From NCBI GenBank assembly GCA_964016885.1, contig OZ024758.1, positions 1,612,001 to 1,676,000 of the forward strand: a stretch of DNA of 64,000 nucleotides, written 5' to 3'. Below, piece by piece: positions 10,920-55,782 of the stretch. The notes beneath the pieces were generated by a model, which was not told the origin of the DNA, ran no database searches, and was given only the letters and a program-made list of their open reading frames with translations. The first letter of the stretch is position 1. Each line of letters starts with the position of its first letter. A program made the translations under genes and the position numbers. Source of the DNA: Eledone cirrhosa (lineage: Eukaryota).

Positions 10920-13259
10920 GACAGACAGGTGGACTGACAGACAGACAGGTGGACTGACAGACAGGTGGACTGACAGACAGGTGGACTGACAGACAGGTGG
11001 ACTGACAGACAGACAGGTGGACTGACAGACAGGTGGACTGACAGACAGGTGGACTGACAGACAGACAGGTGGACTGACAGACAGACAGGTGGACTGACAG
11101 ACAGACAGGTGGACTGACAGACAGGTGGACTGACAGACAGACAGGTGGACTGACAGACAGGTGGACTGACAGACAGACAGGTGGACTGACAGACAGACAG
11201 GTGGACTGACAGACAGACAGGTGGACTGACAGACAGGTGGACTGACAGACAGGTGGACTGACAGACAGGTGGACTGACAGACAGACAGGTGGACTGACAG
11301 ACAGGTGGACTGACAGACAGGTGGACTGACAGACAGACAGGTGGACTGACAGACAGACAGGTGGACTGACAGACAGACAGGTGGACTGACAGACAGGTGG
11401 ACTGACAGACAGGTGGACTGACAGACAGGTGGACTGACAGACAGACAGGTGGACTGACAGACAGGTGGACTGACAGACAGGTGGACTGACAGACAGACAG
11501 GTGGACTGACAGACAGACAGGTGGACTGACAGACAGACAGGTGGACTGACAGACAGGTGGACTGACAGACAGACAGGTGGACTGACAGACAGGTGGACTG
11601 ACAGACAGACAGGTGGACTGACAGACAGACAGGTGGACTGACAGACAGACAGGTGGACTGACAGACAGGTGGACTGACAGACAGACAGGTGGACTGACAG
11701 ACAGGTGGACTGACAGACAGACAGGTGGACTGACAGACAGACAGGTGGACTGACAGACAGACAGGTGGACTGACAGACAGGTGGACTGACAGACAGACAG
11801 GTGGACTGACAGACAGGTGGACTGACAGACAGACAGGTGGACTGACAGACAGACAGGTGGACTGACAGACAGACAGGTGGACTGACAGACAGACAGGTGG
11901 ACTGACAGACAGGTGGACTGACAGACAGATGGACTGACAGACAGGTGGAGTGACAGACAGACAGGTGGACTGACAGACAGACAGATGGACTGACAGACAG
12001 GTGGACTGACAGACAGGTGGACTGACAGACAGGTGGAGTGACAGACAGACAGGTGGACTGACAGACAGACAGATGGACTGACAGACAGGTGGACTGACAG
12101 ACAGACAGGTGGACTGACAGACAGGTGGACTGACAGACAGATGGACTGACAGACAGGTGGACTGACAGACAGATGGACTGACAGACAGGTGGACTGACAG
12201 ACAGATGGACTGACAGACAGGTGGACTGACAGACAGGTGGACTGACAGACAGACAGGTGGACTGACAGACAGGTGAACTGACAGACAGACAGATGGACTG
12301 ACAGACAGGTGGACTGACAGACAGATGGACTGACAGACAGGTGGACTGACAGACAGACAGATGGACTGACAGACAGGTGGACTGACAGACAGATGGACTG
12401 ACAGACAGGTGGACTGACAGACAGGTGGACTGACAGACAGGTGGACTGACAGACAGGTGGACTGACAGACAGACAGGTGGACTGACAGACAGACAGATGG
12501 ACTGACAGACAGACAGGTGGACTGACAGACAGGTGGACTGACAGACAGGTGAACTGACAGACAGGTGGACTGACAGACAGGTGGACTGACAGACAGACAG
12601 GTGGACTGACAGACAGACAGATGGACTGACAGACAGGTGGACTGACATACAGACAGGTGGACTGACAGACAGACAGATGGACTGACAGACAGGTGAACTG
12701 ACAGACAGACAGATGGACTGACAGACAGGTGGACTGACAGACAGATGGACTGACAGACAGGTGGACTGACAGACAGATGGACTGACAGACAGGTGGACTG
12801 ACAGACAGATGGACTGACAGACAGGTGGACTGACAGACAGGTGGACTGACAGACAGGTGGACTGACAGACAGGTGGACTGACAGACAGACAGGTGGACTG
12901 ACAGACAGACAGATGGACTGACAGACAGACAGGTGGACTGACAGACAGGTGGACTGACAGACAGGTGGACTGACAGACAGGTGGACTGACAGACAGGTGG
13001 ACTGACAGACAGACAGGTGGACTGACAGACAGACAGATGGACTGACAGACAGGTGGACTGACAGACAGACAGGTGGACTGACAGACAGACAGATGGACTG
13101 ACAGACAGGTGGACTGACAGACAGACAGGTGGACTGACAGACAGACAGATGGACTGACAGACAGGTGGACTGACAGACAGACAGGTGGACTGACAGACAG
13201 ACAGATGGACTGACAGACAGGTGGACTGACAGACAGACAGGTGGACTGACAGACAGACA
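10920..13259. repeat. GACA satellite array 1, units (GACA)2-3-GGTGGACT with increasing GATGGACT
   Basis: Mixed 16- and 20-bp units; abuts the 3' end of Tx1 copy 1. Confidence 0.98.
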
Positions 13260-13483
13260 AATTTCTGTTTATTTGCCACTAGGGCACAAAAGAAAGGGAC
13301 ATGTACATGGGTGGGGGGAGTTTACATAAAAATCGAGTAAGAAAAATATAACAAACAAAATAATAACAAGAAGGTCCTCAATAGGGAGGGATCGTTTTGG
13401 GGTCACACACACCCCCGAAAAAAAGTGTGCGACCCTTCTCCACGGGAGCACAAAGAGAGGGTGCTCCCTTCTTTCTGTTCCAC

Positions 13484-16400
13484 CTACAGGCTGAGGTAGA
13501 GAGAAGGCCCATTCACACGGGCCATTCTCGCAACTTTCACCCACCTTTCATAAAACTGGCTGGAGTGGAGCACCTCTCTCTCCATCCTGATCCTTCTTCC
13601 GAAATGGTATCGGAAGAAAAGGACCAGTTGTTGGCCGGAGAGAAAGGTGTCCGACCTCAGCCCTTTCAGACGCGTCCACCATATAGCCTCTTTTACCATG
13701 GCTATTACACAGAGGAAGACCGCCTCTCCTTCATTTTTGAAGGGGGGAGGTGGCTTGATCGTTACAATGGACTCGGTGGTCAACCTAATTGGTCCCACCC
13801 GTGACAGCAGTCGTTCGACATAGCCCCACAGATCGGCAACGCCCGGGCAGTGCACCAATGCGTGCGCGACGGTTTCCTCGTCGCGCACGCATCTGGGACA
13901 GATCTTTTTCGAGGGGTCCCTACCCGGGCGCCCGTGTCTGTAGAGCTTATCCCGAACGGGCAGAGCCCCTCGGTAGCACTGCCAGGCCAAGGACTTCTGG
14001 AAGTTGTCCATAGGTCCCGGGCCGAAAGTCCTACCGAATAGACTGGCCAGTTCGTCCTCCTCCATGCCTAGGGCTTCTCCGAGGGCGTCGTCGCACCCGC
14101 TAACCACCAGCCCTCTATAGAATGACGAGGTGGAGTCTCCGTCGATAGCCGGGTCCGCCTGCCAGAGAGCCGTGAGCGCCTGGGCACACTCGGTGTGCCA
14201 GTCGCCCAGTTTTCTCGGTCTTTGCTTCACCCAGGACTGCAGCTCGGTGAGCGAGACGAGCCTCGGGAAGGCTCGCCTCACAAACGGGGCCCACACCGGT
14301 TGACCGGTGAGGAATACGTGGAGGTGCCTTAGCCTCAATGCGTGTTTACGCATTTTTAGCCACGGCATCCCCAGCCCTCCTTTCAAAGGGTGTTGACAGC
14401 AGATGGATCTCCTCACCAGAGGAGACCTCTTCTTCCAAAGGAAATAAAAGAGGGCGCGCTCCATTTTGGCGAGGATCTCACCCGGGCAAGGCACGACAGT
14501 CAAGCGGTAATAGATGACGGACGCTATGTAAGCATTCGCCACCTCCGCCCGACCTTTTAGGGATAGTTTGCACTCGGCCCACTTCTGGGTCAGTGCAAAC
14601 ACCCTATTCGTCACCTCACCCCAGTTTTTCTCCACCTGGAGGTCCGGTCCGAACCAGACCCCAAGCAACTTCACCGGGCCCTCCGTCCACCGTCCGACGA
14701 TACCGTCGCACGACATCGCTTTGCCCCTCCACTCGCCGAGTTGCAAAGCGACTGACTTGTCCCGGTTCAGCTTAGCCCCTGTCAACCTTTCGTACTCCTC
14801 TAGTAAGGTGCCGATTGCCTCGATTTCCGAGGCGGTCGACACCATTACTGTTACGTCATCGGCGTAGGCCGACACCGCTTTGCGCAATCCCGGTTCCAAA
14901 GGGATGCCCTGCAACAACTCCAACTTCCGCAGTAATGGCTCGAGAGTCAACACATACAGAAGGGAGGAGAGAGGGCACCCCTGTCGGATGGAGCGGGTGA
15001 TTTCGAACGGCTCCGAAAGGTAGCCGTTCACCTTGACTCTAGAGCAGATGCGGCTGCTGTGCATGGCAGTGATCCAGCCCCTGAAAACGGGTCCGAACCC
15101 AGCCGCCGCTAGCACCGCATCCAGGTAACCATGGTCCACTCTATCGAACGCTTTAGACTGATCTAAATTTATCAGGGCCCCACCAAAGCCGGGTTCGTTC
15201 CCAACCCTCTCTATGATGTATCGCATGAGGTGGAGGTTGTCGTGGATGGACCTGGACGGGATAGCGCATGTCTGCGCATCTCCCACCAGTCCCCCCACGA
15301 CAAGCGCCAACCTCTTCGCTAACACCTTCGCCAAAATCTTTAACTCTGCATTTAGCAGAGTTATGGGCCTAAAATTACTAATGTCATCCCCCTTGTTCTC
15401 GTCCTTCCTCACTAGCGAGACTACGCCCTTGGTCACAGAACAGGGAATTCTCCCGTTCTGTTGCCAGTTGCAGTAGACCGCCTCGAGGAGATCGGGGAAC
15501 AAGTCCGGCATATTAATATATAGTTCGTAGGGCAGACCATCGAGTCCTGGAGATTTGCGTTTGCCGCATAGGCTCAGCACGTCCCCTATTTCAGCAGCTG
15601 AGATCGGCCCGTCGCAGGACCTCGCCTCCCTGTCCGAAAGACGCGGCAGGCCGTCGAGGTATGGACCGAAATCCACACCTCCAACCGGCTCCCCGCCCCT
15701 CCCGAACAATTGGGCAAAGTGCCTTTGAAAGGCCTCGCACATTTGCTTAGGTTCAAGGATCAGCCGTCCATCCTGGTCTCGCAAAGACCGGATAGTGGAT
15801 TTAATCCCACTTTTCGCTTCTGTCACGCGGGCCCAGCTAACAGCTTTGGTCCCCTCGTTTCCCAGAGCACGTATTTTGCTTCGGACAACGCAGCCTTCGT
15901 GTTTCGCGTCGAAGAACTGGTTCAAGACCGTTCTCGACGCTTGCACTCTGGCCACGTTGCCGCTTCTCATTGCCTCTTCAACATTAACTACCAACTCCCT
16001 TTCCTTCCTATTTCTATCTGAGGCTAACTCCTTACTAACTCCTATTGAAACTACTCTAATCTCTCTTTTTAGAGAGCCCCACCACCTGTTGTTGACGATG
16101 GCGCCCGTCAACTGCTCCTTAACTAAGGTTCTAATCCGGTCCCTGTAAGCTCTACTTGCCGGTAAGGACAAGTTGAGCTTCCAGTAACCGGGCCCCTGCC
16201 TATGCGTTCTATCAAGGTGGACTACGCAGGTCACTAACTTGTGGTCTGAATAGCCCACCATGAGCATTTCTGGACAACTTAAAAAGTCCCTATCCTTAAT
16301 TCTAACTAAGAACCTATCTAGGTACGATCTAGATTGACCACTGTTATTTGACCAGGTCCAGGTTGGTACAGTCGGAAAATCTAGTCGGTATCTATCGGCC

Positions 16401-16921
16401 AGGTCGAATCGACCGATTAACCCCTTAAGGCTGTTACACCCCCCTCTATCGGGACATGCCCCTACATAGTCCCAACGTGCATCTAGGATACCATTCCAGT
16501 CCCCCACTAAAAGCAAGGAGCGGGACGTCCCTAGAAAAGTCTCCAGACGATGGAAGAAGTCCGACCGCATTGCCCCAAAAGGGGCGTATACGGCGACAAG
16601 CCTAAAAGCTTCGCCTTCGCCATTGCCAAGGTCCAGAACCACGAGTCGACCCTCCGGGTCCAAGTGTACCGTCTGTGTAGCGAGACCCAGATGTTTTTGC
16701 AGCAGAACGACAACCCCACCCCCACCTCCGGGCTGACAGAGAGATGCGTGCATCTCAAAGTCATCAAAGGTGGGGGTTAGCTGTCGCATGCTGCTGATCC
16801 GGGCCTCGCAAATAACCATCACATTTACACATTGTGACCTGAAGTCACTTAGAAGTTTAGCTTGCTTCCAAGGTGAGCCCAGGCCACGCGCATTTAGACA
16901 ACCCACTCTTAAGACAGCCAT
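13484..16921 (-). CDS. ORF2p: AP-like endonuclease, reverse transcriptase and C-terminal CCHC zinc finger (1145 aa)
   Basis: APE motifs LNARGL, E, GDWN, LDRF and SDH; Tx1-typical GPGYWKLN; RT motifs KSPGLDG, FRPITLLN, KAFDRV, QGCPLS and YADD; CPRC-x8-H-x4-C. Confidence 0.97.
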   Translation of the reverse strand: MAVLRVGCLNARGLGSPWKQAKLLSDFRSQCVNVMVICEARISSMRQLTPTFDDFEMHASLCQPGGGGGVVVLLQKHLGLATQTVHLDPEGRLVVLDLGNGEGEAFRLVAVYAPFGAMRSDFFHRLETFLGTSRSLLLVGDWNGILDARWDYVGACPDRGGCNSLKGLIGRFDLADRYRLDFPTVPTWTWSNNSGQSRSYLDRFLVRIKDRDFLSCPEMLMVGYSDHKLVTCVVHLDRTHRQGPGYWKLNLSLPASRAYRDRIRTLVKEQLTGAIVNNRWWGSLKREIRVVSIGVSKELASDRNRKERELVVNVEEAMRSGNVARVQASRTVLNQFFDAKHEGCVVRSKIRALGNEGTKAVSWARVTEAKSGIKSTIRSLRDQDGRLILEPKQMCEAFQRHFAQLFGRGGEPVGGVDFGPYLDGLPRLSDREARSCDGPISAAEIGDVLSLCGKRKSPGLDGLPYELYINMPDLFPDLLEAVYCNWQQNGRIPCSVTKGVVSLVRKDENKGDDISNFRPITLLNAELKILAKVLAKRLALVVGGLVGDAQTCAIPSRSIHDNLHLMRYIIERVGNEPGFGGALINLDQSKAFDRVDHGYLDAVLAAAGFGPVFRGWITAMHSSRICSRVKVNGYLSEPFEITRSIRQGCPLSSLLYVLTLEPLLRKLELLQGIPLEPGLRKAVSAYADDVTVMVSTASEIEAIGTLLEEYERLTGAKLNRDKSVALQLGEWRGKAMSCDGIVGRWTEGPVKLLGVWFGPDLQVEKNWGEVTNRVFALTQKWAECKLSLKGRAEVANAYIASVIYYRLTVVPCPGEILAKMERALFYFLWKKRSPLVRRSICCQHPLKGGLGMPWLKMRKHALRLRHLHVFLTGQPVWAPFVRRAFPRLVSLTELQSWVKQRPRKLGDWHTECAQALTALWQADPAIDGDSTSSFYRGLVVSGCDDALGEALGMEEDELASLFGRTFGPGPMDNFQKSLAWQCYRGALPVRDKLYRHGRPGRDPSKKICPRCVRDEETVAHALVHCPGVADLWGYVERLLSRVGPIRLTTESIVTIKPPPPFKNEGEAVFLCVIAMVKEAIWWTRLKGLRSDTFLSGQQLVLFFRYHFGRRIRMEREVLHSSQFYERWVKVARMARVNGPSLYLSL

Positions 16922-16944
16922 GTTGGTGGCAAAGAAAGAGGCAC

Positions 16945-18702
16945 TTACCTCTCTGCGTCCCGGGGTTCGGGTCGCTCAGTTTCCATGGGGCTGGTGGCGG
17001 GGTTGACGGGTGGGGTGGTGGTTTGTGGTGGTGTGGGGGTATTGGTGTGTGGAGGGGTTGGGATCTTTGGAGTTGTGTGGGTGTTTGAGGAGGGGAGGGG
17101 AAAACCTTTCAGGAGGACGCGGTTGAGTGGCCTGGTGCAGGGTGGGCCCACGTCCTCAGGGTACATGTCTTTTAAAGTTTTAAAAATGTCAAGTGGGATT
17201 TTCACCATTTTCAGGTTAGGGAGCCCCATTGCCGTTACGAAATTCGGCCCTTCGGTTTGTATCGAAGGGTTGGTTTCTATTTTTAAAGTTAGGTTTTCAT
17301 TGTTTTTGTTTATGTATGTGTAGAGTTTTTGTGTTGTTGTGTTTGTTTTTGCTTGTTGTTGTTGAGTGAGTTTGCGTTTTATTGTCTGTGTTGTGTTGTC
17401 AGGTGGGGTTATTTTTGTTGTTGTGGTGTGTGTACGTTTTTTTCTTTTCACTTTTTGGAAGGGAGCCCCCTCGTCTTCCGACGATATGAGCTCCTCTTCC
17501 GTATTGGAGGGGAGGGGTATATCTCCGGGTTGTGTATGAACTGTTTTTGTATTTGTGTTCTGTGGGGTGGGGCTGGGTGGGACCGTGTTTTGGGTTGTTT
17601 TCTTGAGCTGTTGTTGATGTTGTTGTTGTTGTGGTGGTGGTGGTGGTGTTGTTGTTGGTTTTTGTTGTTCTGGTGGTGATGGTAGTGTATTTTGTTGTTT
17701 TTGTGATGGTGGTGCTGGTTGTTTTTGTTGTTGTTGTGGTGTTTGTAGCAGTGGTTTTTTTGTTGTTAGTAGAGGGCAGGCCGTCCTCAGGTGACCTCTG
17801 CCAGCGCAGTGGTAACATGAGGGTCTCCTGCCTTCCACTGTGATATTTATGTAGGTTCGCCCATCCAGTAGCACTCGGTCGGGTATTCCGGAGATTCTCT
17901 CAGGTGTCATCTGTAAGAGAACCTCCAGACTTTTCCCCCCGAACAGTCCACTGGTGGACTCCCCTGCTGAAATTAGTATGTCCTTATCTAGGTCGGTAAA
18001 TCCTGTTAGGACGGACCAGATGTTAATTTCTGGCGTAGGGCTCCACATTCTTATCCTTTGTGTTCTTCTTCCTTTATATGTGGGGAAGAAGGTGTATTGT
18101 GGTGACACTATAGGTGCCACCGAATATTTCTGAGCCAGCATTTCGTCCTTCATTCGGACCATAATGCTGGCATACAGCTTTCCTCTTTGAATAAAGAGTA
18201 TGTCATTTTTAATTTCTTTCAGAACCAGCTCGATTTGACTTTCGGTCAATTGCGCTGGCTTTCTCGTTTCGTTGGTTATGGTTCTGAAGCTTACGGTATT
18301 CTTGTAAATCTGTTCACGCACTTCTTCTGGGGAGTTGATCGTAAAAGAACCATCCACCCCAAAAGATACGTATTTTCTAGCCTCTAGCAAATTTTCCTTG
18401 GCGTTCGTGATGTCAATGGCTTTGTACTCCGTGGCTCTCTTGAGTGTTTGGGCAAAAGAAATTTTGTCTTTGTTTGTTGTTGTAATGTTGTTGGTTTCCT
18501 TATTTGTGGTGTTATTTTTTTCTTGAAAATTAATTTTTTCATTTGAATTGAAATTCTTTTTTTCATTGGAGAGGAGGGGTTGTTCAACAGTTTGAACTGT
18601 TGTTCCCTCTTTCCCGCTTGTTTTTTTGGTCGGCGTGGCGTTCGCTTCCAATATGGCGATATCGTTTTCGACGATATCGTTATCAACGATATCGATAAAC
18701 AT
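16945..18702 (-). CDS. ORF1p: gag-like nucleic-acid-binding protein (585 aa)
   Basis: Single CX2CX4HX4C knuckle (CYHCAGRGHLRTAC), Q/P/T-rich disordered region and basic KVKRKKR. Lies upstream of ORF2 and is intact in both copies. Confidence 0.92.
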   Translation of the reverse strand: MFIDIVDNDIVENDIAILEANATPTKKTSGKEGTTVQTVEQPLLSNEKKNFNSNEKINFQEKNNTTNKETNNITTTNKDKISFAQTLKRATEYKAIDITNAKENLLEARKYVSFGVDGSFTINSPEEVREQIYKNTVSFRTITNETRKPAQLTESQIELVLKEIKNDILFIQRGKLYASIMVRMKDEMLAQKYSVAPIVSPQYTFFPTYKGRRTQRIRMWSPTPEINIWSVLTGFTDLDKDILISAGESTSGLFGGKSLEVLLQMTPERISGIPDRVLLDGRTYINITVEGRRPSCYHCAGRGHLRTACPLLTTKKPLLQTPQQQQKQPAPPSQKQQNTLPSPPEQQKPTTTPPPPPQQQQHQQQLKKTTQNTVPPSPTPQNTNTKTVHTQPGDIPLPSNTEEELISSEDEGAPFQKVKRKKRTHTTTTKITPPDNTTQTIKRKLTQQQQAKTNTTTQKLYTYINKNNENLTLKIETNPSIQTEGPNFVTAMGLPNLKMVKIPLDIFKTLKDMYPEDVGPPCTRPLNRVLLKGFPLPSSNTHTTPKIPTPPHTNTPTPPQTTTPPVNPATSPMETERPEPRDAER

Positions 18703-18717
18703 TTCTCAAATATTTAT

Positions 18718-18741
18718 TTTTCACCCCAAAAGGGGTGAAAA
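18718..18741 (-). promoter_or_regulatory. Perfect 10-bp stem-loop in the 5'UTR, about 15 nt before the ORF1 ATG (also at 32625-32648)
   Basis: TTTTCACCCC-AAAA-GGGGTGAAAA. Function is inferred only. Confidence 0.5.
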
Positions 18742-18876
18742 TATATTTACCCGACGTCTAGAGTCCCAGACTAGGGGTTACAGTTAATTATACAAAATAA
18801 TTCAAAAAAATCCACTCACAAAATTAGCAGGTAAAAATCCAAATCACAGAGCGATATGACACACGTCTACTATCCT

Positions 18877-21800
18877 CAGACAGACAGACAGACAGACAGA
18901 TGGACTGACAGACAGATGGACTGACAGACAGATGGACTGACAGACAGGTGGACTGACAGACAGATGGACAGACAGACAGGTGGACTGACAGACAGGTGGA
19001 CAGACAGACAGGTGGACTGACAGACAGGTGGACTGACAGACAGACAGATGGACTGACAGACAGATGGACTGACAGACAGGTGGACAGACAGACAGGTGGA
19101 GTGACAGACAGGTGGACTGACAGACAGGTGGACAGACAGACAGGTGGACTGACAGACAGGTGGACTGACAGACAGGTGGACTGACAGACAGGTGGACTGA
19201 CAGACAGGTGGACAGACAGACAGGTGGACTGACAGACAGGTGGACTGACAGACAGACAGATGGACTGACAGACAGATGGACTGACAGACAGATGGACTGA
19301 CAGACAGGTGGACTGACAGACAGGTGGACTGACAGACAGACAGATGGACTGACAGACAGGTGGACTGACAGACAGACAGGTGGACTGACAGACAGGTGGA
19401 CTGACAGACAGGTGGACTGACAGACAGACAGGTGGACTGACAGACAGGTGGACTGACAGACAGACAGGTGGACTGACAGACAGACAGGTGGACTGACAGA
19501 CAGGTGGACTGACAGACAGACAGATGGACTGACAGACAGGTGGACTGACAGACAGATGGACTGACAGACAGGTGGACTGACAGACAGACAGGTGGACTGA
19601 CAGACAGGTGGACTGACAGACAGGTGGACTGACAGACAGACAGGTGGACTGACAGACAGATGGACTGACAGACAGATGGACTGACAGACAGATGGACTGA
19701 CAGACAGATGGACTGACAGACAGACAGATGGACTGACAGACAGATGGACTGACAGACAGATGGACTGACAGACAGATGGACTGACAGACAGACAGGTGGA
19801 CTGACAGACAGACAGATGGACTGACAGACAGGTGGACTGACATACAGACAGGTGGACTGACAGACAGACAGATGGACTGACAGACAGGTGGACTGACAGA
19901 CAGACAGGTGGACTGACAGACAGACAGATGGACTGACAGACAGGTGAACTGACAGACAGACAGATGGACTGACAGACAGGTGGACTGACAGACAGATGGA
20001 CTGACAGACAGGTGGACTGACAGACAGATGGACTGACAGACAGGTGGACTGACAGACAGATGGACTGACAGACAGGTGGACTGACAGACAGGTGGACTGA
20101 CAGACAGGTGGACTGACAGACAGGTGGACTGACAGACAGACAGGTGGACTGACAGACAGACAGATGGACTGACAGACAGACAGGTGGACTGACAGACAGG
20201 TGGACTGACAGACAGGTGGACTGACAGACAGGTGGACTGACAGACAGGTGGACTGACAGACAGGTGGACTGACAGACAGACAGGTGGACTGACAGACAGA
20301 CAGATGGACTGACAGACAGGTGGACTGACAGACAGACAGGTGGACTGACAGACAGACAGATGGACTGACAGACAGGTGGACTGACAGACAGACAGATGGA
20401 CTGACAGACAGGTGGACTGACAGACAGACAGATGGACTGACAGACAGGTGGACTGACAGACAGGTGGACTGACAGACAGACAGGTGGACTGACAGACAGA
20501 CAGGTGGACTGACAGACAGACAGGTGGACTGACAGACAGACAGGTGGACTGACAGACAGGTGGACTGACAGACAGACAGGTGGACTGACAGACAGGTGGA
20601 CTGACAGACAGACAGGTGGACTGACAGACAGGTGGACTGACAGACAGACAGGTGGACTGACAGACAGACAGATGGACTGACAGACAGGTGGACTGACAGA
20701 CAGGTAGACTGACAGACAGGTGGACCGACAGACAGGTGGACTGACAGACAGGTGGACTGACAGACAGACAGGTGGACTGACAGACAGACAGATGGACTGA
20801 CAGACAGGTGGACTGACAGACAGGTGGACTGACAGACAGGTGGACTGACAGACAGGTGGACTGACAGACAGGTGGACTGACAGACAGACAGGTGGACTGA
20901 CAGACAGACAGATGGACTGACAGACAGGTGGACTGACAGACAGGTGGACTGACAGACAGATGGACTGACAGACAGATGGACTGACAGACAGGTGGACTGA
21001 CAGACAGATGGACTGACAGACAGATGGACTGACAGACAGGTGGACTGACAGACAGGTGGACTGACAGACAGATGGACTGACAGACAGATGGACTGACAGA
21101 CAGGTGGACTGACAGACAGATGGACTAACAGAGAGGTGGACTGACAGACAGGTGAACTGACAGACAGATGGACTGACAGACAGATGGACTGACAGACAGG
21201 TGGACTGACAGACAGATGGACTGACAGACAGATGGACTGACAGACAGATGGACTGACAGACAGATGGACTGACAGACAGATGGACTGACAGACAGGTGGA
21301 CTGACAGACAGATGGACTGACAGACAGATGGACTGACAGACAGGTGGACTGACAGACAGATGGACTGACAGACAGATGGACTGACAGACAGATGGACTGA
21401 CAGACAGGTGGACTGACAGATTGATGGACTGACAGACATATGGACTGACAGACAGATGGACTGACAGACAGATGGACTGACAGACAGGTGGACTGACAGA
21501 CAGATGGACTGACAGACAGATGGACTGACAGACAGGTGGACTGACAGACAGATGGACTGACAGACAGATAGATTGACAGACAGGTGGACTGACAGACAGA
21601 TGGACTGACAGACAGATGGACTGACAGACAGATGGACTGACAGACAGGTGGACTGACAGACAGATGGACTGACAGACAGATGGACTGACAGACAGATGGA
21701 CTGACAGACAGATGGACTGACAGACAGGTGGACTGACAGACAGATGGACTGACAGACAGATGGACTGACAGACAGATGGACTGACAGACAGATGGACTGA

Positions 21801-27166: not shown

Positions 27167-27390
27167 AATTTCTGTTTATTTGCCACTAGGGCACAAAAGA
27201 AAGGGACATGTACATGGGTGGGGGGAGTTTACATAAAAATCGAGTAAGAAAAATATAACAAACAAAATAATAACAAGAAGGTCCTCAATAGGGAGGGATC
27301 GTTTTGGGGTCACACACACCCCCGAAAAAAAGTGTGCGACCCTTCTCCACGGGAGCACAAAGAGAGGGTGCTCCCTTCTTTCTGTTCCAC

Positions 27391-30300
27391 CTACAGGCTG
27401 AGGTAGAGAGAAGGCCCATTCACACGGGCCATTCTCGCAACTTTCACCCACCTTTCATAAAACTGGCTGGAGTGGAGCACCTCTCTCTCCATCCTGATCC
27501 TTCTTCCGAAATGGTATCGGAAGAAAAGGACCAGTTGTTGGCCGGAGAGAAAGGTGTCCGACCTCAGCCCTTTCAGACGCGTCCACCATATAGCCTCTTT
27601 TACCATGGCTATTACACAGAGGAAGACCGCCTCTCCTTCATTTTTGAAGGGGGGAGGTGGCTTGATCGTTACAATGGACTCGGTGGTCAACCTAATTGGT
27701 CCCACCCGTGACAGCAGTCGTTCGACATAGCCCCACAGATCGGCAACGCCCGGGCAGTGCACCAATGCGTGCGCGACGGTTTCCTCGTCGCGCACGCATC
27801 TGGGACAGATCTTTTTCGAGGGGTCCCTACCCGGGCGCCCGTGTCTGTAGAGCTTATCCCGAACGGGCAGAGCCCCTCGGTAGCACTGCCAGGCCAAGGA
27901 CTTCTGGAAGTTGTCCATAGGTCCCGGGCCGAAAGTCCTACCGAATAGACTGGCCAGTTCGTCCTCCTCCATGCCTAGGGCTTCTCCGAGGGCGTCGTCG
28001 CACCCGCTAACCACCAGCCCTCTATAGAATGACGAGGTGGAGTCTCCGTCGATAGCCGGGTCCGCCTGCCAGAGAGCCGTGAGCGCCTGGGCACACTCGG
28101 TGTGCCAGTCGCCCAGTTTTCTCGGTCTTTGCTTCACCCAGGACTGCAGCTCGGTGAGCGAGACGAGCCTCGGGAAGGCTCGCCTCACAAACGGGGCCCA
28201 CACCGGTTGACCGGTGAGGAATACGTGGAGGTGCCTTAGCCTCAATGCGTGTTTACGCATTTTTAGCCACGGCATCCCCAGCCCTCCTTTCAAAGGGTGT
28301 TGACAGCAGATGGATCTCCTCACCAGAGGAGACCTCTTCTTCCAAAGGAAATAAAAGAGGGCGCGCTCCATTTTGGCGAGGATCTCACCCGGGCAAGGCA
28401 CGACAGTCAAGCGGTAATAGATGACGGACGCTATGTAAGCATTCGCCACCTCCGCCCGACCTTTTAGGGATAGTTTGCACTCGGCCCACTTCTGGGTCAG
28501 TGCAAACACCCTATTCGTCACCTCACCCCAGTTTTTCTCCACCTGGAGGTCCGGTCCGAACCAGACCCCAAGCAACTTCACCGGGCCCTCCGTCCACCGT
28601 CCGACGATACCGTCGCACGACATCGCTTTGCCCCTCCACTCGCCGAGTTGCAAAGCGACTGACTTGTCCCGGTTCAGCTTAGCCCCTGTCAACCTTTCGT
28701 ACTCCTCTAGTAAGGTGCCGATTGCCTCGATTTCCGAGGCGGTCGACACCATTACTGTTACGTCATCGGCGTAGGCCGACACCGCTTTGCGCAATCCCGG
28801 TTCCAAAGGGATGCCCTGCAACAACTCCAACTTCCGCAGTAATGGCTCGAGAGTCAACACATACAGAAGGGAGGAGAGAGGGCACCCCTGTCGGATGGAG
28901 CGGGTGATTTCGAACGGCTCCGAAAGGTAGCCGTTCACCTTGACTCTAGAGCAGATGCGGCTGCTGTGCATGGCAGTGATCCAGCCCCTGAAAACGGGTC
29001 CGAACCCAGCCGCCGCTAGCACCGCATCCAGGTAACCATGGTCCACTCTATCGAACGCTTTAGACTGATCTAAATTTATCAGGGCCCCACCAAAGCCGGG
29101 TTCGTTCCCAACCCTCTCTATGATGTATCGCATGAGGTGGAGGTTGTCGTGGATGGACCTGGACGGGATAGCGCATGTCTGCGCATCTCCCACCAGTCCC
29201 CCCACGACAAGCGCCAACCTCTTCGCTAACACCTTCGCCAAAATCTTTAACTCTGCATTTAGCAGAGTTATGGGCCTAAAATTACTAATGTCATCCCCCT
29301 TGTTCTCGTCCTTCCTCACTAGCGAGACTACGCCCTTGGTCACAGAACAGGGAATTCTCCCGTTCTGTTGCCAGTTGCAGTAGACCGCCTCGAGGAGATC
29401 GGGGAACAAGTCCGGCATATTAATATATAGTTCGTAGGGCAGACCATCGAGTCCTGGAGATTTGCGTTTGCCGCATAGGCTCAGCACGTCCCCTATTTCA
29501 GCAGCTGAGATCGGCCCGTCGCAGGACCTCGCCTCCCTGTCCGAAAGACGCGGCAGGCCGTCGAGGTATGGACCGAAATCCACATTTCCAACCGGCTCCC
29601 CGCCCCTCCCGAACAATTCGGCAAAGTGCCTTTGAAAGGCCTCGCACATTTGCTTAGGTTCAAGGATCAGCCGTCCATCCTGGTCTCGCAAAGACCGGAT
29701 AGTGGATTTAATCCCACTTTTCGCTTCTGTCACGCGGGCCCAGCTAACAGCTTTGGTCCCCTCGTTTCCCAGAGCACGTATTTTGCTTCGGACAACGCAG
29801 CCTTCGTGTTTCGCGTCGAAGAACTGGTTCAAGACCGTTCTCGACGCTTGCACTCTGGCCACGTTGCCGCTTCTCATTGCCTCTTCAACATTAACTACCA
29901 ACTCCCTTTCCTTCCTATTTCTATCTGAGGCTAACTCCTTACTAACTCCTATTGAAACTACTCTAATCTCTCTTTTTAGAGAGCCCCACCACCTGTTGTT
30001 GACGATGGCGCCCGTCAACTGCTCCTTAACTAAGGTTCTAATCCGGTCCCTGTAAGCTCTACTTGCCGGTAAGGACAAGTTGAGCTTCCAGTAACCGGGC
30101 CCCTGCCTATGCGTTCTATCAAGGTGGACTACGCAGGTCACTAACTTGTGGTCTGAATAGCCCACCATGAGCATTTCTGGACAACTTAAAAAGTCCCTAT
30201 CCTTAATTCTAACTAAGAACCTATCTAGGTACGATCTAGATTGACCACTGTTATTTGACCAGGTCCAGGTTGGTACAGTCGGAAAATCTAGTCGGTATCT

Positions 30301-30828
30301 ATCGGCCAGGTCGAATCGGCCGATTAACCCCTTAAGGCTGTTACACCCCCCTCTATCGGGACATGCCCCTACATAGTCCCAACGTGCATCTAGGATACCA
30401 TTCCAGTCCCCCACTAAAAGCAAGGAGCGGGACGTCCCTAGAAAAGTCTCCAGACGATGGAAGAAGTCCGACCGCATTGCCCCAAAAGGGGCGTATACGG
30501 CGACAAGCCTAAAAGCTTCGCCTTCGCCATTGCCAAGGTCCAGAACCACGAGTCGACCCTCCGGGTCCAAGTGTACCGTCTGTGTAGCGAGACCCAGATG
30601 TTTTTGCAGCAGAACGACAACCCCACCCCCACCTCCGGGCTGACAGAGAGATGCGTGCATCTCAAAGTCATCAAAGGTGGGGGTTAGCTGTCGCATGCTG
30701 CTGATCCGGGCCTCGCAAATAACCATCACATTTACACATTGTGACCTGAGGTCACTTAGAAGTTTAGCTTGCTTCCAAGGTGAGCCCAGGCCACGCGCAT
30801 TTAGACAACCCACTCTTAAGACAGCCAT
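27391..30828 (-). CDS. ORF2p (APE-RT-zinc finger), copy 2, 1145 aa
   Basis: Same motifs as copy 1. Differs at SD(F/L)R, FA(Q/E)L and VG(G/N)V. Confidence 0.97.
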   Translation of the reverse strand: MAVLRVGCLNARGLGSPWKQAKLLSDLRSQCVNVMVICEARISSMRQLTPTFDDFEMHASLCQPGGGGGVVVLLQKHLGLATQTVHLDPEGRLVVLDLGNGEGEAFRLVAVYAPFGAMRSDFFHRLETFLGTSRSLLLVGDWNGILDARWDYVGACPDRGGCNSLKGLIGRFDLADRYRLDFPTVPTWTWSNNSGQSRSYLDRFLVRIKDRDFLSCPEMLMVGYSDHKLVTCVVHLDRTHRQGPGYWKLNLSLPASRAYRDRIRTLVKEQLTGAIVNNRWWGSLKREIRVVSIGVSKELASDRNRKERELVVNVEEAMRSGNVARVQASRTVLNQFFDAKHEGCVVRSKIRALGNEGTKAVSWARVTEAKSGIKSTIRSLRDQDGRLILEPKQMCEAFQRHFAELFGRGGEPVGNVDFGPYLDGLPRLSDREARSCDGPISAAEIGDVLSLCGKRKSPGLDGLPYELYINMPDLFPDLLEAVYCNWQQNGRIPCSVTKGVVSLVRKDENKGDDISNFRPITLLNAELKILAKVLAKRLALVVGGLVGDAQTCAIPSRSIHDNLHLMRYIIERVGNEPGFGGALINLDQSKAFDRVDHGYLDAVLAAAGFGPVFRGWITAMHSSRICSRVKVNGYLSEPFEITRSIRQGCPLSSLLYVLTLEPLLRKLELLQGIPLEPGLRKAVSAYADDVTVMVSTASEIEAIGTLLEEYERLTGAKLNRDKSVALQLGEWRGKAMSCDGIVGRWTEGPVKLLGVWFGPDLQVEKNWGEVTNRVFALTQKWAECKLSLKGRAEVANAYIASVIYYRLTVVPCPGEILAKMERALFYFLWKKRSPLVRRSICCQHPLKGGLGMPWLKMRKHALRLRHLHVFLTGQPVWAPFVRRAFPRLVSLTELQSWVKQRPRKLGDWHTECAQALTALWQADPAIDGDSTSSFYRGLVVSGCDDALGEALGMEEDELASLFGRTFGPGPMDNFQKSLAWQCYRGALPVRDKLYRHGRPGRDPSKKICPRCVRDEETVAHALVHCPGVADLWGYVERLLSRVGPIRLTTESIVTIKPPPPFKNEGEAVFLCVIAMVKEAIWWTRLKGLRSDTFLSGQQLVLFFRYHFGRRIRMEREVLHSSQFYERWVKVARMARVNGPSLYLSL

Positions 30829-30851
30829 GTTGGTGGCAAAGAAAGAGGCAC

Positions 30852-32609
30852 TTACCTCTCTGCGTCCCGGGGTTCGGGTCGCTCAGTTTCCATGGGGCTG
30901 GTGGCGGGGTTGATGGGTGGGGTGGTGGTTTGTGGTGGTGTGGGGGTATTGGTGTGTGGAGGGGTTGGGATCTTTGGAGTTGTGTGGGTGTTTGAGGAGG
31001 GGAGGGGAAAACCTTTCAGGAGGACGCGGTTGAGTGGCCTGGTGCAGGGTGGGCCCACGTCCTCAGGGTACATGTCTTTTAAAGTTTTAAAAATGTCAAG
31101 TGGGATTTTCACCATTTTCAGGTTAGGGAGCCCCATTGCCGTTACGAAATTCGGCCCTTCGGTTTGTATCGAAGGGTTGGTTTCTATTTTTAAAGTTAGG
31201 TTTTCATTGTTTTTGTTTATGTATGTGTAGAGTTTTTGTGTTGTTGTGTTTGTTTTTGCTTGTTGTTGTTGAGTGAGTTTGCGTTTTATTGTCTGTGTTG
31301 TGTTGTCAGGTGGGGTTATTTTTGTTGTTGTGGTGTGTGTACGTTTTTTTCTTTTCACTTTTTGGAAGGGAGCCCCCTCGTCTTCCGACGATATGAGCTC
31401 CTCTTCCGTATTGGAGGGGAGGGGTATATCTCCGGGTTGTGTATGAACTGTTTTTGTATTTGTGTTCTGTGGGGTGGGGCTGGGTGGGACCGTGTTTTGG
31501 GTTGTTTTCTTGAGCTGTTGTTGATGTTGTTGTTGTTGTGGTGGTGGTGGTGGTGTTGTTGTTGGTTTTTGTTGTTCTGGTGGTGATGGTAGTGTATTTT
31601 GTTGTTTTTGTGATGGTGGTGCTGGTTGTTTTTGTTGTTGTTGTGGTGTTTGTAGCAGTGGTTTTTTTGTTGTTAGTAGAGGGCAGGCCGTCCTCAGGTG
31701 ACCTCTGCCAGCGCAGTGGTAACATGAGGGTCTCCTGCCTTCCACTGTGATATTTATGTAGGTTCGCCCATCCAGTAGCACTCGGTCGGGTATTCCGGAG
31801 ATTCTCTCAGGTGTCATCTGTAAGAGAACCTCCAGACTTTTCCCCCCGAACAGTCCACTGGTGGACTCCCCTGCTGAAATTAGTATGTCCTTATCTAGGT
31901 CGGTAAATCCTGTTAGGACGGACCAGATGTTAATTTCTGGCGTAGGGCTCCACATTCTTATCCTTTGTGTTCTTCTTCCTTTATATGTGGGGAAGAAGGT
32001 GTATTGTGGTGACACTATAGGTGCCACCGAATATTTCTGAGCCAGCATTTCGTCCTTCATTCGGACCATAATGCTGGCATACAGCTTTCCTCTTTGAATA
32101 AAGAGTATGTCATTTTTAATTTCTTTCAGAACCAGCTCGATTTGACTTTCGGTCAATTGCGCTGGCTTTCTCGTTTCGTTGGTTATGGTTCTGAAGCTTA
32201 CGGTATTCTTGTAAATCTGTTCACGCACTTCTTCTGGGGAGTTGATCGTAAAAGAACCATCCACCCCAAAAGATACGTATTTTCTAGCCTCTAGCAAATT
32301 TTCCTTGGCGTTCGTGATGTCAATGGCTTTGTACTCCGTGGCTCTCTTGAGTGTTTGGGCAAAAGAAATTTTGTCTTTGTTTGTTGTTGTAATGTTGTTG
32401 GTTTCCTTATTTGTGGTGTTATTTTTTTCTTGAAAATTAATTTTTTCATTTGAATTGAAATTCTTTTTTTCATTGGAGAGGAGGGGTTGTTCAACAGTTT
32501 GAACTGTTGTTCCCTCTTTCCCGCTTGTTTTTTTGGTCGGCGTGGCGTTCGCTTCCAATATGGCGATATCGTTTTCGACGATATCGTTATCAACGATATC
32601 GATAAACAT
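30852..32609 (-). CDS. ORF1p (CCHC knuckle), copy 2, 585 aa
   Basis: Identical to copy 1 apart from PP(V/I)NP. Confidence 0.92.
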   Translation of the reverse strand: MFIDIVDNDIVENDIAILEANATPTKKTSGKEGTTVQTVEQPLLSNEKKNFNSNEKINFQEKNNTTNKETNNITTTNKDKISFAQTLKRATEYKAIDITNAKENLLEARKYVSFGVDGSFTINSPEEVREQIYKNTVSFRTITNETRKPAQLTESQIELVLKEIKNDILFIQRGKLYASIMVRMKDEMLAQKYSVAPIVSPQYTFFPTYKGRRTQRIRMWSPTPEINIWSVLTGFTDLDKDILISAGESTSGLFGGKSLEVLLQMTPERISGIPDRVLLDGRTYINITVEGRRPSCYHCAGRGHLRTACPLLTTKKPLLQTPQQQQKQPAPPSQKQQNTLPSPPEQQKPTTTPPPPPQQQQHQQQLKKTTQNTVPPSPTPQNTNTKTVHTQPGDIPLPSNTEEELISSEDEGAPFQKVKRKKRTHTTTTKITPPDNTTQTIKRKLTQQQQAKTNTTTQKLYTYINKNNENLTLKIETNPSIQTEGPNFVTAMGLPNLKMVKIPLDIFKTLKDMYPEDVGPPCTRPLNRVLLKGFPLPSSNTHTTPKIPTPPHTNTPTPPQTTTPPINPATSPMETERPEPRDAER

Positions 32610-32783
32610 TTCTCAAATATTTATTTTTCACCCCAAAAGGGGTGAAAATATATTTACCCGACGTCTAGAGTCCCAGACTAGGGGTTACAGTTAATTATAC
32701 AAAATAATTCAAAAAAATCCACTCACAAAATTAGCAGGTAAAAATCCAAATCACAGAGCGATATGACACACGTCTACTATCCT

Positions 32784-35700
32784 CAGACAGACAGACAGAC
32801 AGACAGATGGACTGACAGACAGATGGACTGACAGACAGATGGACTGACAGACAGGTGGACTGACAGACAGATGGACAGACAGACAGGTGGACTGACAGAC
32901 AGGTGGACAGACAGACAGGTGGACTGACAGACAGGTGGACTGACAGACAGACAGATGGACTGACAGACAGATGGACTGACAGACAGGTGGACAGACAGAC
33001 AGGTGGAGTGACAGACAGGTGGACTGACAGACAGGTGGACAGACAGACAGGTGGACTGACAGACAGGTGGACTGACAGACAGGTGGACTGACAGACAGGT
33101 GGACTGACAGACAGGTGGACAGACAGACAGGTGGACTGACAGACAGGTGGACTGACAGACAGACAGATGGACTGACAGACAGATGGACTGACAGACAGAT
33201 GGACTGACAGACAGGTGGACTGACAGACAGGTGGACTGACAGACAGACAGATGGACTGACAGACAGGTGGACTGACAGACAGACAGGTGGACTGACAGAC
33301 AGGTGGACTGACAGACAGGTGGACTGACAGACAGACAGGTGGACTGACAGACAGGTGGACTGACAGACAGACAGGTGGACTGACAGACAGACAGGTGGAC
33401 TGACAGACAGGTGGACTGACAGACAGACAGATGGACTGACAGACAGGTGGACTGACAGACAGATGGACTGACAGACAGGTGGACTGACAGACAGACAGGT
33501 GGACTGACAGACAGGTGGACTGACAGACAGGTGGACTGACAGACAGACAGGTGGACTGACAGACAGATGGACTGACAGACAGATGGACTGACAGACAGAT
33601 GGACTGACAGACAGATGGACTGACAGACAGACAGATGGACTGACAGACAGATGGACTGACAGACAGATGGACTGACAGACAGATGGACTGACAGACAGAC
33701 AGGTGGACTGACAGACAGATGGACTGACAGACAGATGGACTGACAGACAGACAGATGGACTGACAGACAGATGGACTGACAGACAGATGGACTGACAGAC
33801 AGATGGACTGACAGACAGACAGATGGACTGACATACAGATGGACTGACAGACAGATGGACTGACAGACAGATGGACTGACAGACAGATGGACTGACAGAC
33901 AGATGGGCTGACAGACAGACAGGTGGACTGACAGACAGATGGACTGACAGACAGATGGACTGACAGACAGACAGATGGACTGACAGACAGATGGACTGAC
34001 AGACAGATGGACTGACAGACAGATGGACTGACAGACAGATGGACTGACAGACAGATGGACTGACAGACAGACAGATGGACTGACAGACAGATGGACTGAC
34101 AGACAGATGGACTGACAGACAGACAGATGGACTGACAGACAGATGGACTGACAGACAGATGGACTGACAGACAGATGGACTGACAGACAGACAGGTGGAC
34201 TGACAGACAGATGGACTGACAGACAGATGGACTGACAGACAGACAGATGGACTGACAGACAGATGGACTGACAGACAGATGGACTGACAGACAGATGGAC
34301 TGACAGACAGACAGATGGACTGACAGACAGACAGATGGACTGAGAGACAGATGGACTGACAGACAGACAGATGGACTGACAGACAGACAGATGGATTGAG
34401 AGACAGACAGATGGACTGAGAGACAGACAGATGGACTGACAGATGGACTGACAGACAGACAGATGGACTGACAGACAGACAGACAGACATATGGACTGAC
34501 AGACAAACAGACAGATGGACTGACAGACAGACAGACAGACAGATGGACTGACAGACAGACAGATGGACTGACAGACAGACAGATGGACTGAGAGACAGAT
34601 GGACTGACAGACAGACAGATGGACTGACAGACAGACATATGGACTGACAGACAGACAGATGGACTGAGAGACAGACAGATGGACTGACAGACAGACAGAT
34701 GGACTGACAGACAGACAGATGGACTGAGAGACAGACAGATGGACTGACAGACAGACAGATGGACTGACAGACAGACAGATGGACTGACAGACAGACAGAT
34801 GGACTGAGAGACAGACAGATGGACTGACAGACAGACAGATGGACTGACAGACAGATGGACTGACAGACAGACAGATGGACTGACAGACAGATGGACTGAC
34901 AGACAGACAGATGGACTGACAGACAGACAGATGGACTGACAGACAGACAGATGGACTGACAGACAGACAGATGGACTGACAGACAGACAGATGGACTGAC
35001 AGACAGATGGACTGAGAGACAGACAGATGGACTGACAGACAGACAGATGGACTGAGAGACAGACAGATGGACTGACAGACAGACAGATGGACTGACAGAC
35101 AGACAGATGGACTGACAGACAGACAGATGGACTGACAGACAGACAGATGGACTGACAGACAGACAGACAGATGGACTGACAGACAAACAGACAGATGGAC
35201 TGACAGACAGACAGACAGACAGATGGACTGACAGACAGATGGACTGACAGACAGACAGATGGACTGACAGACAGACAGATGGACTGAGAGACAGACAGAT
35301 GGACTGACAGACAGACAGATGGACTGACAGACAGACAGATGGACTGAGAGACAGACAGATGGACTGACAGACAGACAGATGGACTGAGAGACAGACAGAT
35401 GGACTGACAGACAGACAGATGGACTGAGAGACAGACAGATGGACTGACAGACAGACAGATGGACTGACAGACAGACAGATGGACTGAGAGACAGACAGAT
35501 GGACTGACAGACAGACAGATGGACTGAGAGACAGACAGATGGACTGACAGACAGACAGATGGACTGACAGACAGACAGATGGACTGAGAGACAGATGGAC
35601 TGACAGACAGACAGATGGACTGACAGACAGACAGATGGACTGAGAGACAGACAGATGGACTAACAGACAGACAGATGGACTGAGAGACAGACAGATTGAC

Positions 35701-36116
35701 TGACAGACAGACAGATGGACTGACAGACAGACAGATGGACTGACAGACAGACAGATGGACTGACAGACAGACAGATGGACTGACAGACAGACAGATGGAC
35801 TGACAGACAGACAGACAGATGGACTGACAGACAAACAGACAGATGGACTGACAGACAGACAGACAGACAGATGGACTGACAGACAGACAGATGGACTTAC
35901 AGACAGACAGATGGACTGACAGACAGACAGATGGACTGACAGACAGATGGACTGACAGACAGACAGATGGACTGACAGACAGACAGATGGACTGAGAGAC
36001 AGACAGATGGACTGACAGACAGACAGATGGACTGACAGACAGACAGATGGACTGACAGACAGACAGATGGACTGAGAGACAGACAGATGGACTGACAGAC
36101 AGATGGACTGACAGAG
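32784..36116. repeat. GACA satellite array 3, ending in mostly 20-bp GA(C/G)A-GACA-GACA-GATGGACT units
   Basis: About 32790-35950 is a near copy of about 22310-25480 (shared CATACA, GGGCTG, GGATTGAG, ACAAAC and GGACTTAC variants). Confidence 0.98.
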
Positions 36117-36179
36117 AGATAAAAAGGGAGAACGGGGGATCAATAGAGAGAAAGATGAATAAGAGGTCATCTAAAATAG

Positions 36180-38787: not shown

Positions 38788-39476
38788 TATAGTTGCTCCA
38801 GATGTGATACAACATGGATGGCAATCACCAGATGTGATCCAACATGGATGGCAATAGTTGCTCCAGATGTGATCCAACATGGGTGGCAATCTCCTGATGT
38901 GATCCAACATGGATGACAATAGTTGCTCCAGATGTGTTCCAGCATGGATGACAATAGTTGCTCCAGATGTGTTCCAGTATGGGTGACAATAGTTTCTCCA
39001 GGTGTGATCCAACATGAATGACAATCTCCAGATGTGATCCAACATGAATGACAATAGTTGCTCCAGATGTGTTCCAGCATGGATGACAATAGTTGCTCCA
39101 GATGTGTTCCAGTATGGGTGACAATAGTTGCTCCAGGTGTGATCCAACATGAATGACAATCTCCAGATGTGATCCAACATGAATGACAATAGTTGCTCCA
39201 GATGTGTTCCAGCATGGATGACAATAGTTGCTCCAGATGTGTTCCAGTATGGGTGACAATAGTTGCTCCAGGTGTGATCCAACATGAATGACAATCTCCA
39301 GATGTGATCCAACATGAATGACAATAGTTGCTCCAGATGTGTTCCAGCATGGATGACAATAGTTGCTCCAGATGTGTTCCAGTATGGGTGACAATAGTTG
39401 CTCCAGGTGTGATCCAACATGAATGACAATCTCCAGATGTGATCCAACATGAATGACAATAGTTGCTCCAGATGTG
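38788..39476. repeat. Minisatellite with 30/35-bp monomers in a 135-bp higher-order unit
   Basis: GGTGTGATCCAAC recurs at 39001, 39136, 39271 and 39406 (30+35+35+35 bp). Confidence 0.95.
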
Positions 39477-39927
39477 TATTATATATACGAGAACAAACAC
39501 CGCCCAGACCGTAATTTGGAGGAATAGATTTGATTGATGTGGAACTTTTCCTACAACACCACACAATTATTAAGATAGCTGGCACGTGTGTGTGTATATG
39601 TGGGTGTGTGTGAGCGCGTGTGTGTGTGTATGCCTCTGTGTGTGTCTGTGTCTGTGTGTGTGTGTGTGTGTGTGTGTCTGTGTCTGTGTCTGTGTCTGTG
39701 TCTGTGTCTGTGTCTGTGTATGCGAGCGCATTTGTGTGTGTGTTTATGGTATCAGCAATAGATATTAGATAACATCAGTAATAGAAAGAACAATGGAAAT
39801 ATGATTTCATTGATCAGATCCGACGAGCGGCTCTTTCCTTTCTATATACATATAAAAATACACTCGCATATCTGTGTGTATATATATATATATAAACATA
39901 CACGTACACATGCATATCTGTATATAC

Positions 39928-55619: not shown

Positions 55620-55650
<31 letters not shown>

Positions 55651-55751: not shown

Positions 55752-55782
<31 letters not shown>

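What the first reader, a model, noticed from the sequence alone, without database searches (positions are those of the whole stretch)
10920..36116. Intact twin Tx1 retrotransposons living inside a GACA satellite: candidate new sequence-specific family
Seen: two full-length elements with both ORFs open, in the same orientation, with all four junctions inside (GACA)n runs. There is no poly(A); the sense strand goes AATAAACAGAAATT straight into TGTCTGTC. Known: Tx1-group APE retrotransposons include target-specific families (Kibi in (TC)n, Koshi in (TTC)n, Keno in U2 genes, Dewa in tRNA arrays). Inference: this is a potentially active family targeting (TGTC)n/(GACA)n. I do not recognise that target as described for Tx1, but I cannot confirm novelty without a database search.
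Basis: partly seen in the sequence, partly recalled or inferred. Interest (0 to 1): 0.9.

Follow-up and report, generated by a model that had tools for sequence, protein, structure and literature searches.

The report
Retrotransposon newly aimed at GACA repeats
This is a young jumping-gene family whose roughly 200 copies sit almost only in GACA-type repeats, while its close relatives in the same genome sit in GATA repeats, so it likely changed its DNA target by one letter recently and offers a natural test of how such enzymes choose where to cut.

Summary
Confirmed. Two 5,618-bp L1/Tx1-group LINEs (6 differences, both ORFs open, no poly(A)) lie in a compound GACA minisatellite. The target claim holds genome-wide: 197 of 209 exact 3' ends are followed by NN-RTCT (about 2 expected). 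Flanking TGTC repeats extend far beyond the junction in 35 of 55 copies (0 of 3,960 background windows), and 11-19 bp target duplications are visible.

Corrections: the four junctions are not four independent observations. The two 5' flanks are one 935-nt sequence, and full-length copies carry extra (TGTC)n heads, likely inherited from the donor.

New here: larger sister lineages (9,876 and 662 end-motif matches; ORF2 76-89% identical) sit mostly in (TATC)n. The TGTC family is a supported clade nested inside them, which implies a recent one-base target switch. It has 19 near-fixed endonuclease differences, one in the DNA-probing hairpin loop.

Microsatellite-specific Tx1 elements are known (Kibi, Koshi, crocodilian TTCC/TTTC). 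Ten literature searches found no GACA or GATA target, but Repbase and Dfam could not be checked. Tx1 membership in the strict sense and current activity are inferred, not shown. Verdict: new variant of a known kind.

The parts
10920..13259 (.). Satellite block S1, compound (GACA)2-3 + GGTGGACT/GATGGACT minisatellite; 3' flank of element A
13260..18877 (-). Element A, full-length L1/Tx1-group LINE, 5,618 bp, no poly(A)
13260..13483 (-). 3' UTR of A, ending AATAAACAGAAATT
13484..16921 (-). ORF2 of A (1,145 aa): APE endonuclease, RT with YADD, C-terminal zinc knuckle
16325..16357 (-). Codons 189-199 of ORF2: hairpin loop equivalent to L1-EN T192-S202; N193 is R or H in all 14 TATC-lineage copies compared
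16945..18702 (-). ORF1 of A (585 aa), CCHC knuckle, low-complexity C-terminal half
18703..18877 (-). 5' UTR of A, starting GAGGATAGTAG
18878..27166 (.). Satellite block S2 between the elements, with internal higher-order duplications
18878..19812 (.). 5' flank of A, identical (935 nt) to the 5' flank of B at 32785-33719
22299..22326 (.). Empty paralogue of B's insertion site (GGTGGCCT, GACA x3, GATGGACT); the 2,354 nt after it equal 32814-35167
27167..32784 (-). Element B, full-length, 5,618 bp
27391..30828 (-). ORF2 of B (1,145 aa), open
30852..32609 (-). ORF1 of B (585 aa), open
32785..36120 (.). Satellite block S3, 5' flank of B

Best explanation
The two elements belong to a young family of endonuclease-type LINE retrotransposons whose copies sit almost only at GTCT in TGTC/GACA repeats, and which likely arose from GATA-targeting relatives by a one-base change in what its endonuclease cuts. 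Shown: anatomy, genome-wide junction bias, pre-existing repeats on both sides, target-site duplications, and nesting of the TGTC clade inside TATC lineages. Inferred mechanism: the APE domain nicks the GACA strand within about 2 nt of 5'-AGAC-3'; reverse transcription primes there on an RNA ending ...AAAT(T/C)T without poly(A); a second nick 11-19 nt away gives the duplication. Full-length RNAs likely start inside the upstream repeat, so daughters inherit a (TGTC)n head from the donor, which would help anneal the 5' junction. Each insertion re-creates targets, which would explain the tandem arrays. In the window, A and B are likely two insertions (different 3' sites) whose 5' flanks later came to share one origin.
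For: 197 of 209 exact 3' ends are followed by NN-RTCT; background frequency of RTCT is 0.008 per position; of the 100 rows listed, 90 read GTCT and 10 ATCT (counted by eye). In 60 fetched copies: 56 GTCT, 3 GTAT, 1 ATCT. TGTC density was at least 0.25 at +22..+72 in 35 of 55 (5 with a tandem neighbour set aside) against 0 of 3,960 background windows. 41 of 41 full-length starts follow a TGTC-type pentamer, and 32 of 41 have dense TGTC beyond 22 nt on at least one side. Five 5'-truncated copies, which cannot carry a head, have TGTC-type repeats upstream. Duplications containing non-repeat letters: L091 11, L093 12, L115 15, L122 15, L124 17, L117 18, L147 19 nt. Empty-site comparison for B: duplication of at most 12 nt plus at least 9 extra repeat bases at the 5' side. 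L033 (C22) and L059 (C1) share a rare 16-nt head and one SNP found in no other aligned copy. Sisters: 25 of 30 and 28 of 28 sampled ends lie in TATC; 8 of 8 sister 5' starts follow TATCT. The TGTC clade has support 100/96 and is nested in TATC lineages. L237 has a TGTC-family terminus but a TATC-lineage body, and sits in TATC.
Against: 6 of 12 truncated copies have no TGTC upstream and no duplication found (L097, L102, L104, L109, L116, L143). Some copies sit at very short sites (L119, L137) or in another repeat (L136), so the requirement may be a short motif rather than a microsatellite. 12 of 209 lack RTCT. Many of the 209 lie in tandem arrays and are not independent events. ORF1 differs far more than ORF2 between TGTC and TATC sisters (about 41% vs 84%), so the endonuclease need not be the cause of the switch. 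The 19 endonuclease differences all map to one branch and cannot be ranked from sequence. In L1-EN, loop flexibility may matter more than loop sequence (PMC1950540, passages). Only 6 of 41 full-length copies have both ORFs open.
Confidence: 0.8

Rival explanations
1. Target choice is set mainly by the RNA: transcripts read through into the donor's repeat, and the (UGUC)n tail pairs with nicked (GACA)n, so the switch was inherited through RNA-DNA pairing rather than a changed endonuclease.
For: No poly(A). The terminal TT or CT is kept even where the local repeat has other letters (L107, L133, L134). Donor-derived 5' heads show that transcripts include flanking repeat.
Against: 10 of 100 listed ends read ATCT and L136 reproduces its off-target site at both ends, so the first flank letters come from the target. 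L237 follows its body, not its terminus (one case).
Confidence: 0.2
2. The repeats are element-made tails and heads (as in L2/CR1 tails), inserted at near-random sites and expanded afterwards; there is no true target.
For: Heads of up to about 16 nt are inherited; a few copies have little repeat in unique DNA (L119, L137).
Against: Locus-specific repeat variants continue on both sides (L107, L139, L146, L150), truncated copies lie in TGTC, and an empty site exists in the window.
Confidence: 0.05
3. On the twin only: A is not a separate insertion but a copy of B made by DNA-level duplication, by a local retrotransposition carrying 0.9 kb of B's flank, or by mis-assembly of the 25-kb array.
For: 935-nt identical 5' flanks; 2,354-nt exact duplication inside the array. 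Removing A plus 0.9 kb restores a regular higher-order repeat with a 12-nt duplication, which fits a 5' transduction.
Against: The 3' flanks differ after 14 nt. At element position 3166, B shares G with three other young copies while A has the majority C, which argues for different donors.
Confidence: 0.4
4. The family and its target are already catalogued (for example in Repbase or Dfam), so only the instance is new.
For: 80 L1-Tx1 families are annotated in an octopus repeat library (PMC13282606 supplement table). The target-labelled tree in PMC4494074 Fig. 3 and its supplements could not be seen.
Against: No GACA or GATA target for such elements surfaced in ten searches; 'target' occurs 0 times in the octopus annotation paper's main text.
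Confidence: 0.35

Closest known systems
Kibi ((TC)n) and Koshi ((TTC)n), teleost Tx1 elements; crocodilian Tx1 group in (TTCC)n/(TTTC)n (PMC4494074, passages; PMC3812793, passages)
   Same: APE-type LINE inserted in a pyrimidine-rich microsatellite on the sense strand; tandem insertions; tetranucleotide targets exist in the crocodilian group.
   Different: The target here is (TGTC)n, with sisters in (TATC)n and one in (TTA)n. The host is likely an octopod (closest named protein: Argonauta hians, 68%). Relationship to Kibi/Koshi was not testable. Both sides of a one-base switch are present in one genome.
Tx1L of Xenopus laevis
   Same: Sequence-specific APE LINE; its endonuclease nicks almost only its target in vitro (PMC1950540, passages).
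   Different: Tx1L targets a transposon (Tx1D), not a repeat; its hairpin loop has 11 residues with an RDGH tip, whereas this one has 9 between the T and S anchors, like L1.
Human LINE-1 ORF2p
   Same: Best solved-structure match by sequence (E 5e-50) and fold (endonuclease TM about 0.75); same catalytic residues.
   Different: No poly(A), no TTTT/AA site, CCHC-type ORF1 with no Transposase_22 hit, strict repeat target.
Waldo (ACAY) and Mino (AC) elements (PMC3812793, passage)
   Same: APE LINEs in CA-rich microsatellites.
   Different: R1-clade insect elements by the cited title; different repeat unit. This ORF2 is L1-like.

Membership tests
L1-group (L1/Tx1) non-LTR retrotransposon | ORF2 with N-terminal APE endonuclease, RT and C-terminal CCHC, closer to L1 than to R2 | tested here: met
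   Pfam Exo_endo_phos, RVT_1, zf-RVT; L1 ORF2p E 5e-50 vs R2 E 4e-18; fold match to L1-EN
L1-group (L1/Tx1) non-LTR retrotransposon | Target-site duplications and 5' truncation from target-primed reverse transcription | tested here: met
   Duplications of 11-19 nt in 7 informative copies; 12 of 60 truncated
Tx1 clade | RT groups with reference Tx1 elements (Tx1L, Kibi, Koshi, Keno) in a phylogeny | not testable with these tools
   No labelled Tx1 reference was returned; the tree holds unnamed relatives only
Tx1 clade | ORF1 of RRM/zf-CCHC type rather than Transposase_22 (PMC5203782, passage) | tested here: inconclusive
   CCHC motif is present but below the Pfam cut-off (E 0.07); Atlas look-alikes carry zf-CCHC at 0.90-0.91 and ZCCHC3 RNA-binding domains at 0.89 (lead only); no Transposase_22; no RRM hit in Pfam
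Tx1 clade | Target preference: one sequence type in more than 20% of flanks (criterion of PMC4494074) | tested here: met
   56 of 60 GTCT; 35 of 55 with dense TGTC beyond 22 nt
Kibi / Koshi / crocodilian TTCC-TTTC group | Target (TC)n, (TTC)n, (TTCC)n or (TTTC)n | tested here: not met
   Junction is GTCT or ATCT in 197 of 209
Mammalian-type L1 | Poly(A) tail and TTTT/AA insertion site | tested here: not met
   No poly(A) after any of 60 ends
Currently active family | Transcription and new or polymorphic insertions | not testable with these tools
   Indirect only: 6 of 41 full-length copies plus A and B have both ORFs open; copies on other contigs are 100% identical over 1,721 nt

The most novel reading that the evidence does not exclude
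One genome preserves a LINE caught in the act of retargeting: a (GATA)n-specific Tx1-like lineage gave rise to a (GACA)n-specific clade through a few endonuclease substitutions, among them hairpin R/H193N, with open ORF2s on both sides. These elements are transcribed from within the microsatellite and use a donor-derived repeat head, up to 0.9 kb in this window, to form the 5' junction. Neither target is described for Tx1.
Probability: 0.4. Interest if true: 0.75.

Novelty: new variant of a known kind. Interest (0 to 1): 0.6.

Why it matters
How APE-type LINE endonucleases read a target is poorly understood, and loop grafts between distant enzymes gave mixed results (PMC1950540, passages). Here two natural enzymes about 80-83% identical in the endonuclease domain go with targets one base apart, leaving 19 candidate residues. 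That makes the specificity question directly testable and bears on engineering site-specific integrases. It also shows that a large share of young L1/Tx1-type copies in this repeat-rich genome is aimed at GATA/GACA microsatellites, which affects how those repeats grow and how they behave as markers.

Tried and rejected
Pure (GACA)n satellite: rejected, it is a compound minisatellite. Four independent junctions: rejected. Simple tandem duplication of B with both flanks: rejected, because the 3' flanks differ. Expression: no RNA holder listed; the four runs laid were contigs of one study and told nothing about transcripts or the twin. Naming the clade through protein databases: no Tx1-labelled hit. 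Head-type tree: mostly unresolved apart from the L033/L059 pair, support 84 on one SNP. 5'-end counts (122 and 112) use non-nested patterns, so no ratio was drawn. Looking 9 kb further upstream of six broken copies found element sequence only for L105. No earlier scan findings were returned. PMC85248 is not held; the supplements of PMC4494074 could not be read and may list further Tx1 targets. My early note gave the hairpin residue as N192; the correct number is N193. L230's ORF2 is not fully open (1,061 codons).
Full report
Observation. The window holds two elements on the minus strand, A (13260-18877) and B (27167-32784), each 5,618 bp, differing at 6 positions. Both have an open ORF1 (585 aa, CCHC knuckle) and an open ORF2 (1,145 aa) with APE, RT and zf-RVT domains. 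The catalytic residues and YADD are intact. A model of the endonuclease (pLDDT 91) matches human L1-EN best (TM about 0.75). The 3' end runs AATAAACAGAAATT into TGTC with no poly(A). The surrounding array is a compound minisatellite of (GACA)2-3 plus GGTGGACT/GATGGACT units; no (GACA)3 occurs elsewhere in the window.

Genome-wide target test. The terminal 25-mer occurs 209 times, control 0. 197 of 209 are followed by NN-RTCT, against 0.008 per position in 20 arbitrary 5-kb stretches. Of the 100 rows listed, I count 90 GTCT and 10 ATCT. Many copies lie in tandem arrays, so these are not 209 independent events. I fetched 60 of the first 100 listed places, mostly one per cluster: 56 GTCT, 3 GTAT, 1 ATCT. 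TGTC density at +22..+72 was at least 0.25 in 35 of 55 (5 with a tandem neighbour set aside), against 0 of 3,960 background windows. 46 of 60 keep the 5' end (41, 5 more with internal deletions). All 41 follow a TGTC-type pentamer, and 6 of 41 have both ORFs open.

Target or tail. Of the other 14 copies, one ends at a gap and one is interrupted. Five truncated copies have TGTC-type repeats upstream, one (L136) lies in another repeat with a 17-nt duplication with one mismatch, and six have no TGTC upstream and no duplication found; these six count against a clean picture. Duplications holding non-repeat letters measure 11-19 nt in seven copies; in periodic arrays the length is ambiguous. An empty paralogue of B's site lies at 22299-22326, followed by 2,354 nt identical to B's flank. 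Comparing the two gives a duplication of at most 12 nt plus at least 9 extra repeat bases at the 5' side. L033 (C22) and L059 (C1) share a rare 16-nt head and one private SNP, so heads are likely inherited from the donor; this rests on one pair. The repeats are therefore mostly pre-existing targets, with a short element-borne head on full-length copies.

The twin. The 5' flanks of A and B are identical for 935 nt; the 3' flanks differ after 14 nt. Removing A plus that segment restores a regular higher-order repeat. B shares one allele with three other young copies while A has the majority letter. The likeliest reading is two insertions followed by transfer of B's flank to A; a local retrotransposition with 0.9-kb 5' transduction or a mis-assembly is not excluded.

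Sister lineages. Related ends appeared in the flanks. One end motif has 9,876 matches; in 30 loci the ORF2 matches are mostly 76-89% identical (frameshifted pieces lower), 25 have TATC flanks, and one more distant copy lies in (TTA)n. A closer motif has 662 matches: 28 of 28 TAGAAAT ends lie in TATC and 2 of 2 CAGAAAT ends in TGTC. Of six CAGAAAT copies fetched, five lie in TGTC; L237 has a TATC-lineage body and lies in TATC. An RT tree of 52 rows (window A, 9 of 20 TGTC loci, 20 of 23 TATC loci, 1 TTA, 21 of 22 database proteins; rows without an unbroken segment dropped) puts TGTC copies in one clade (100/96) nested within TATC lineages. Labels went by end family; L187 and L195 do not themselves have TATC flanks. 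Nineteen endonuclease columns are near-fixed between the groups (11-18 vs 14-15 copies), including N193 (R or H in 14 of 14), which aligns to the L1-EN T192-S202 hairpin. ORF1 is only about 41% identical between sisters, so the cause of the switch is not pinned to the endonuclease.

Mechanism. Inferred from established target-primed reverse transcription: the APE domain nicks the GACA strand next to AGAC, RT primes on the non-polyadenylated end, and a staggered second nick duplicates 11-19 nt. Transcripts likely begin in the upstream repeat. None of the biochemical steps was tested.

Comparison and novelty. PMC4494074 (passages; figure and supplements not seen) lists Tx1 targets (TC)n, (TTC)n, (TTCC)n, (TTTC)n, U2 genes and transposons. 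PMC3812793 (passages) adds ACAY, AC and TAA for other LINEs. PMC5203782 (passages) links RRM/zf-CCHC ORF1 to Tx1. PMC1950540 (passages) covers the hairpin. PMC13282606 (passages and one supplement table) lists 80 L1-Tx1 families in an octopus with no mention of targets. PMC5753468 and PMC3747384 (passages) added nothing on targets. Kojima and Fujiwara 2004 was not read. Ten searches surfaced no GACA or GATA target for such elements; most results were seen as listings only. Repbase and Dfam were not available. The closest named protein is from Argonauta hians (68%), so the host is likely an octopod. It works like Kibi/Koshi; membership of the L1/Tx1 group is met, and strict Tx1 membership is probable but untested.

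Verdict. A real, young, target-specific LINE family: new variant of a known kind, interest 0.6. The added value lies in the recent TATC-to-TGTC switch among close relatives more than in the twin itself.

Noticed in passing
G000 genome-wide; L151-L241: Large sister lineages in (TATC)n/(GATA)n: 9,876 and 662 end-motif matches; L194 has an open full-length ORF2 at 83.6% identity; tandem full-length arrays occur.
   Followed up: partly
L169 / L186 (G000:C1:17005800-17012100): More distant relative (ORF2 60-68%) whose 3' flank is (TTA)n: a possible third target; one copy only.
   Followed up: partly
L136 (C4:62.83 Mb) and L151 (C1:2.56 Mb): A TGTC-family copy and a TATC-family copy both inserted at the same TATCTG position of another repeat family, which suggests a shared short-motif preference.
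   Followed up: no
G000:C3:358.73-358.78 Mb, C2:402.74-402.76 Mb, C2:103.44-103.47 Mb: Tandem arrays of 4-9 full-length copies with repeat spacers from about 16 bases to several kilobases.
   Followed up: partly
L091-L150: 46 of 60 sampled copies keep their 5' end, a high full-length share for a LINE; three 5' start variants (GAGG, CAGG, TTG) mark subfamilies.
   Followed up: partly
L114 5' flank: A different, more distant 3' end (also seen before TATC in L170) followed by TGTC; either an independent TGTC insertion or the head of the next element.
   Followed up: no
window 2-645, 38789-39477, 43983-45230, 55572-55986: Other well-conserved minisatellites (42-, 35-, 29- and 33-bp units) unrelated to the GACA array.
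   Followed up: no
window 16843, 16412, 17007, 15678: Four letters of A are absent or nearly absent in other copies (one gives L27F in the endonuclease); private mutations or assembly errors.
   Followed up: partly
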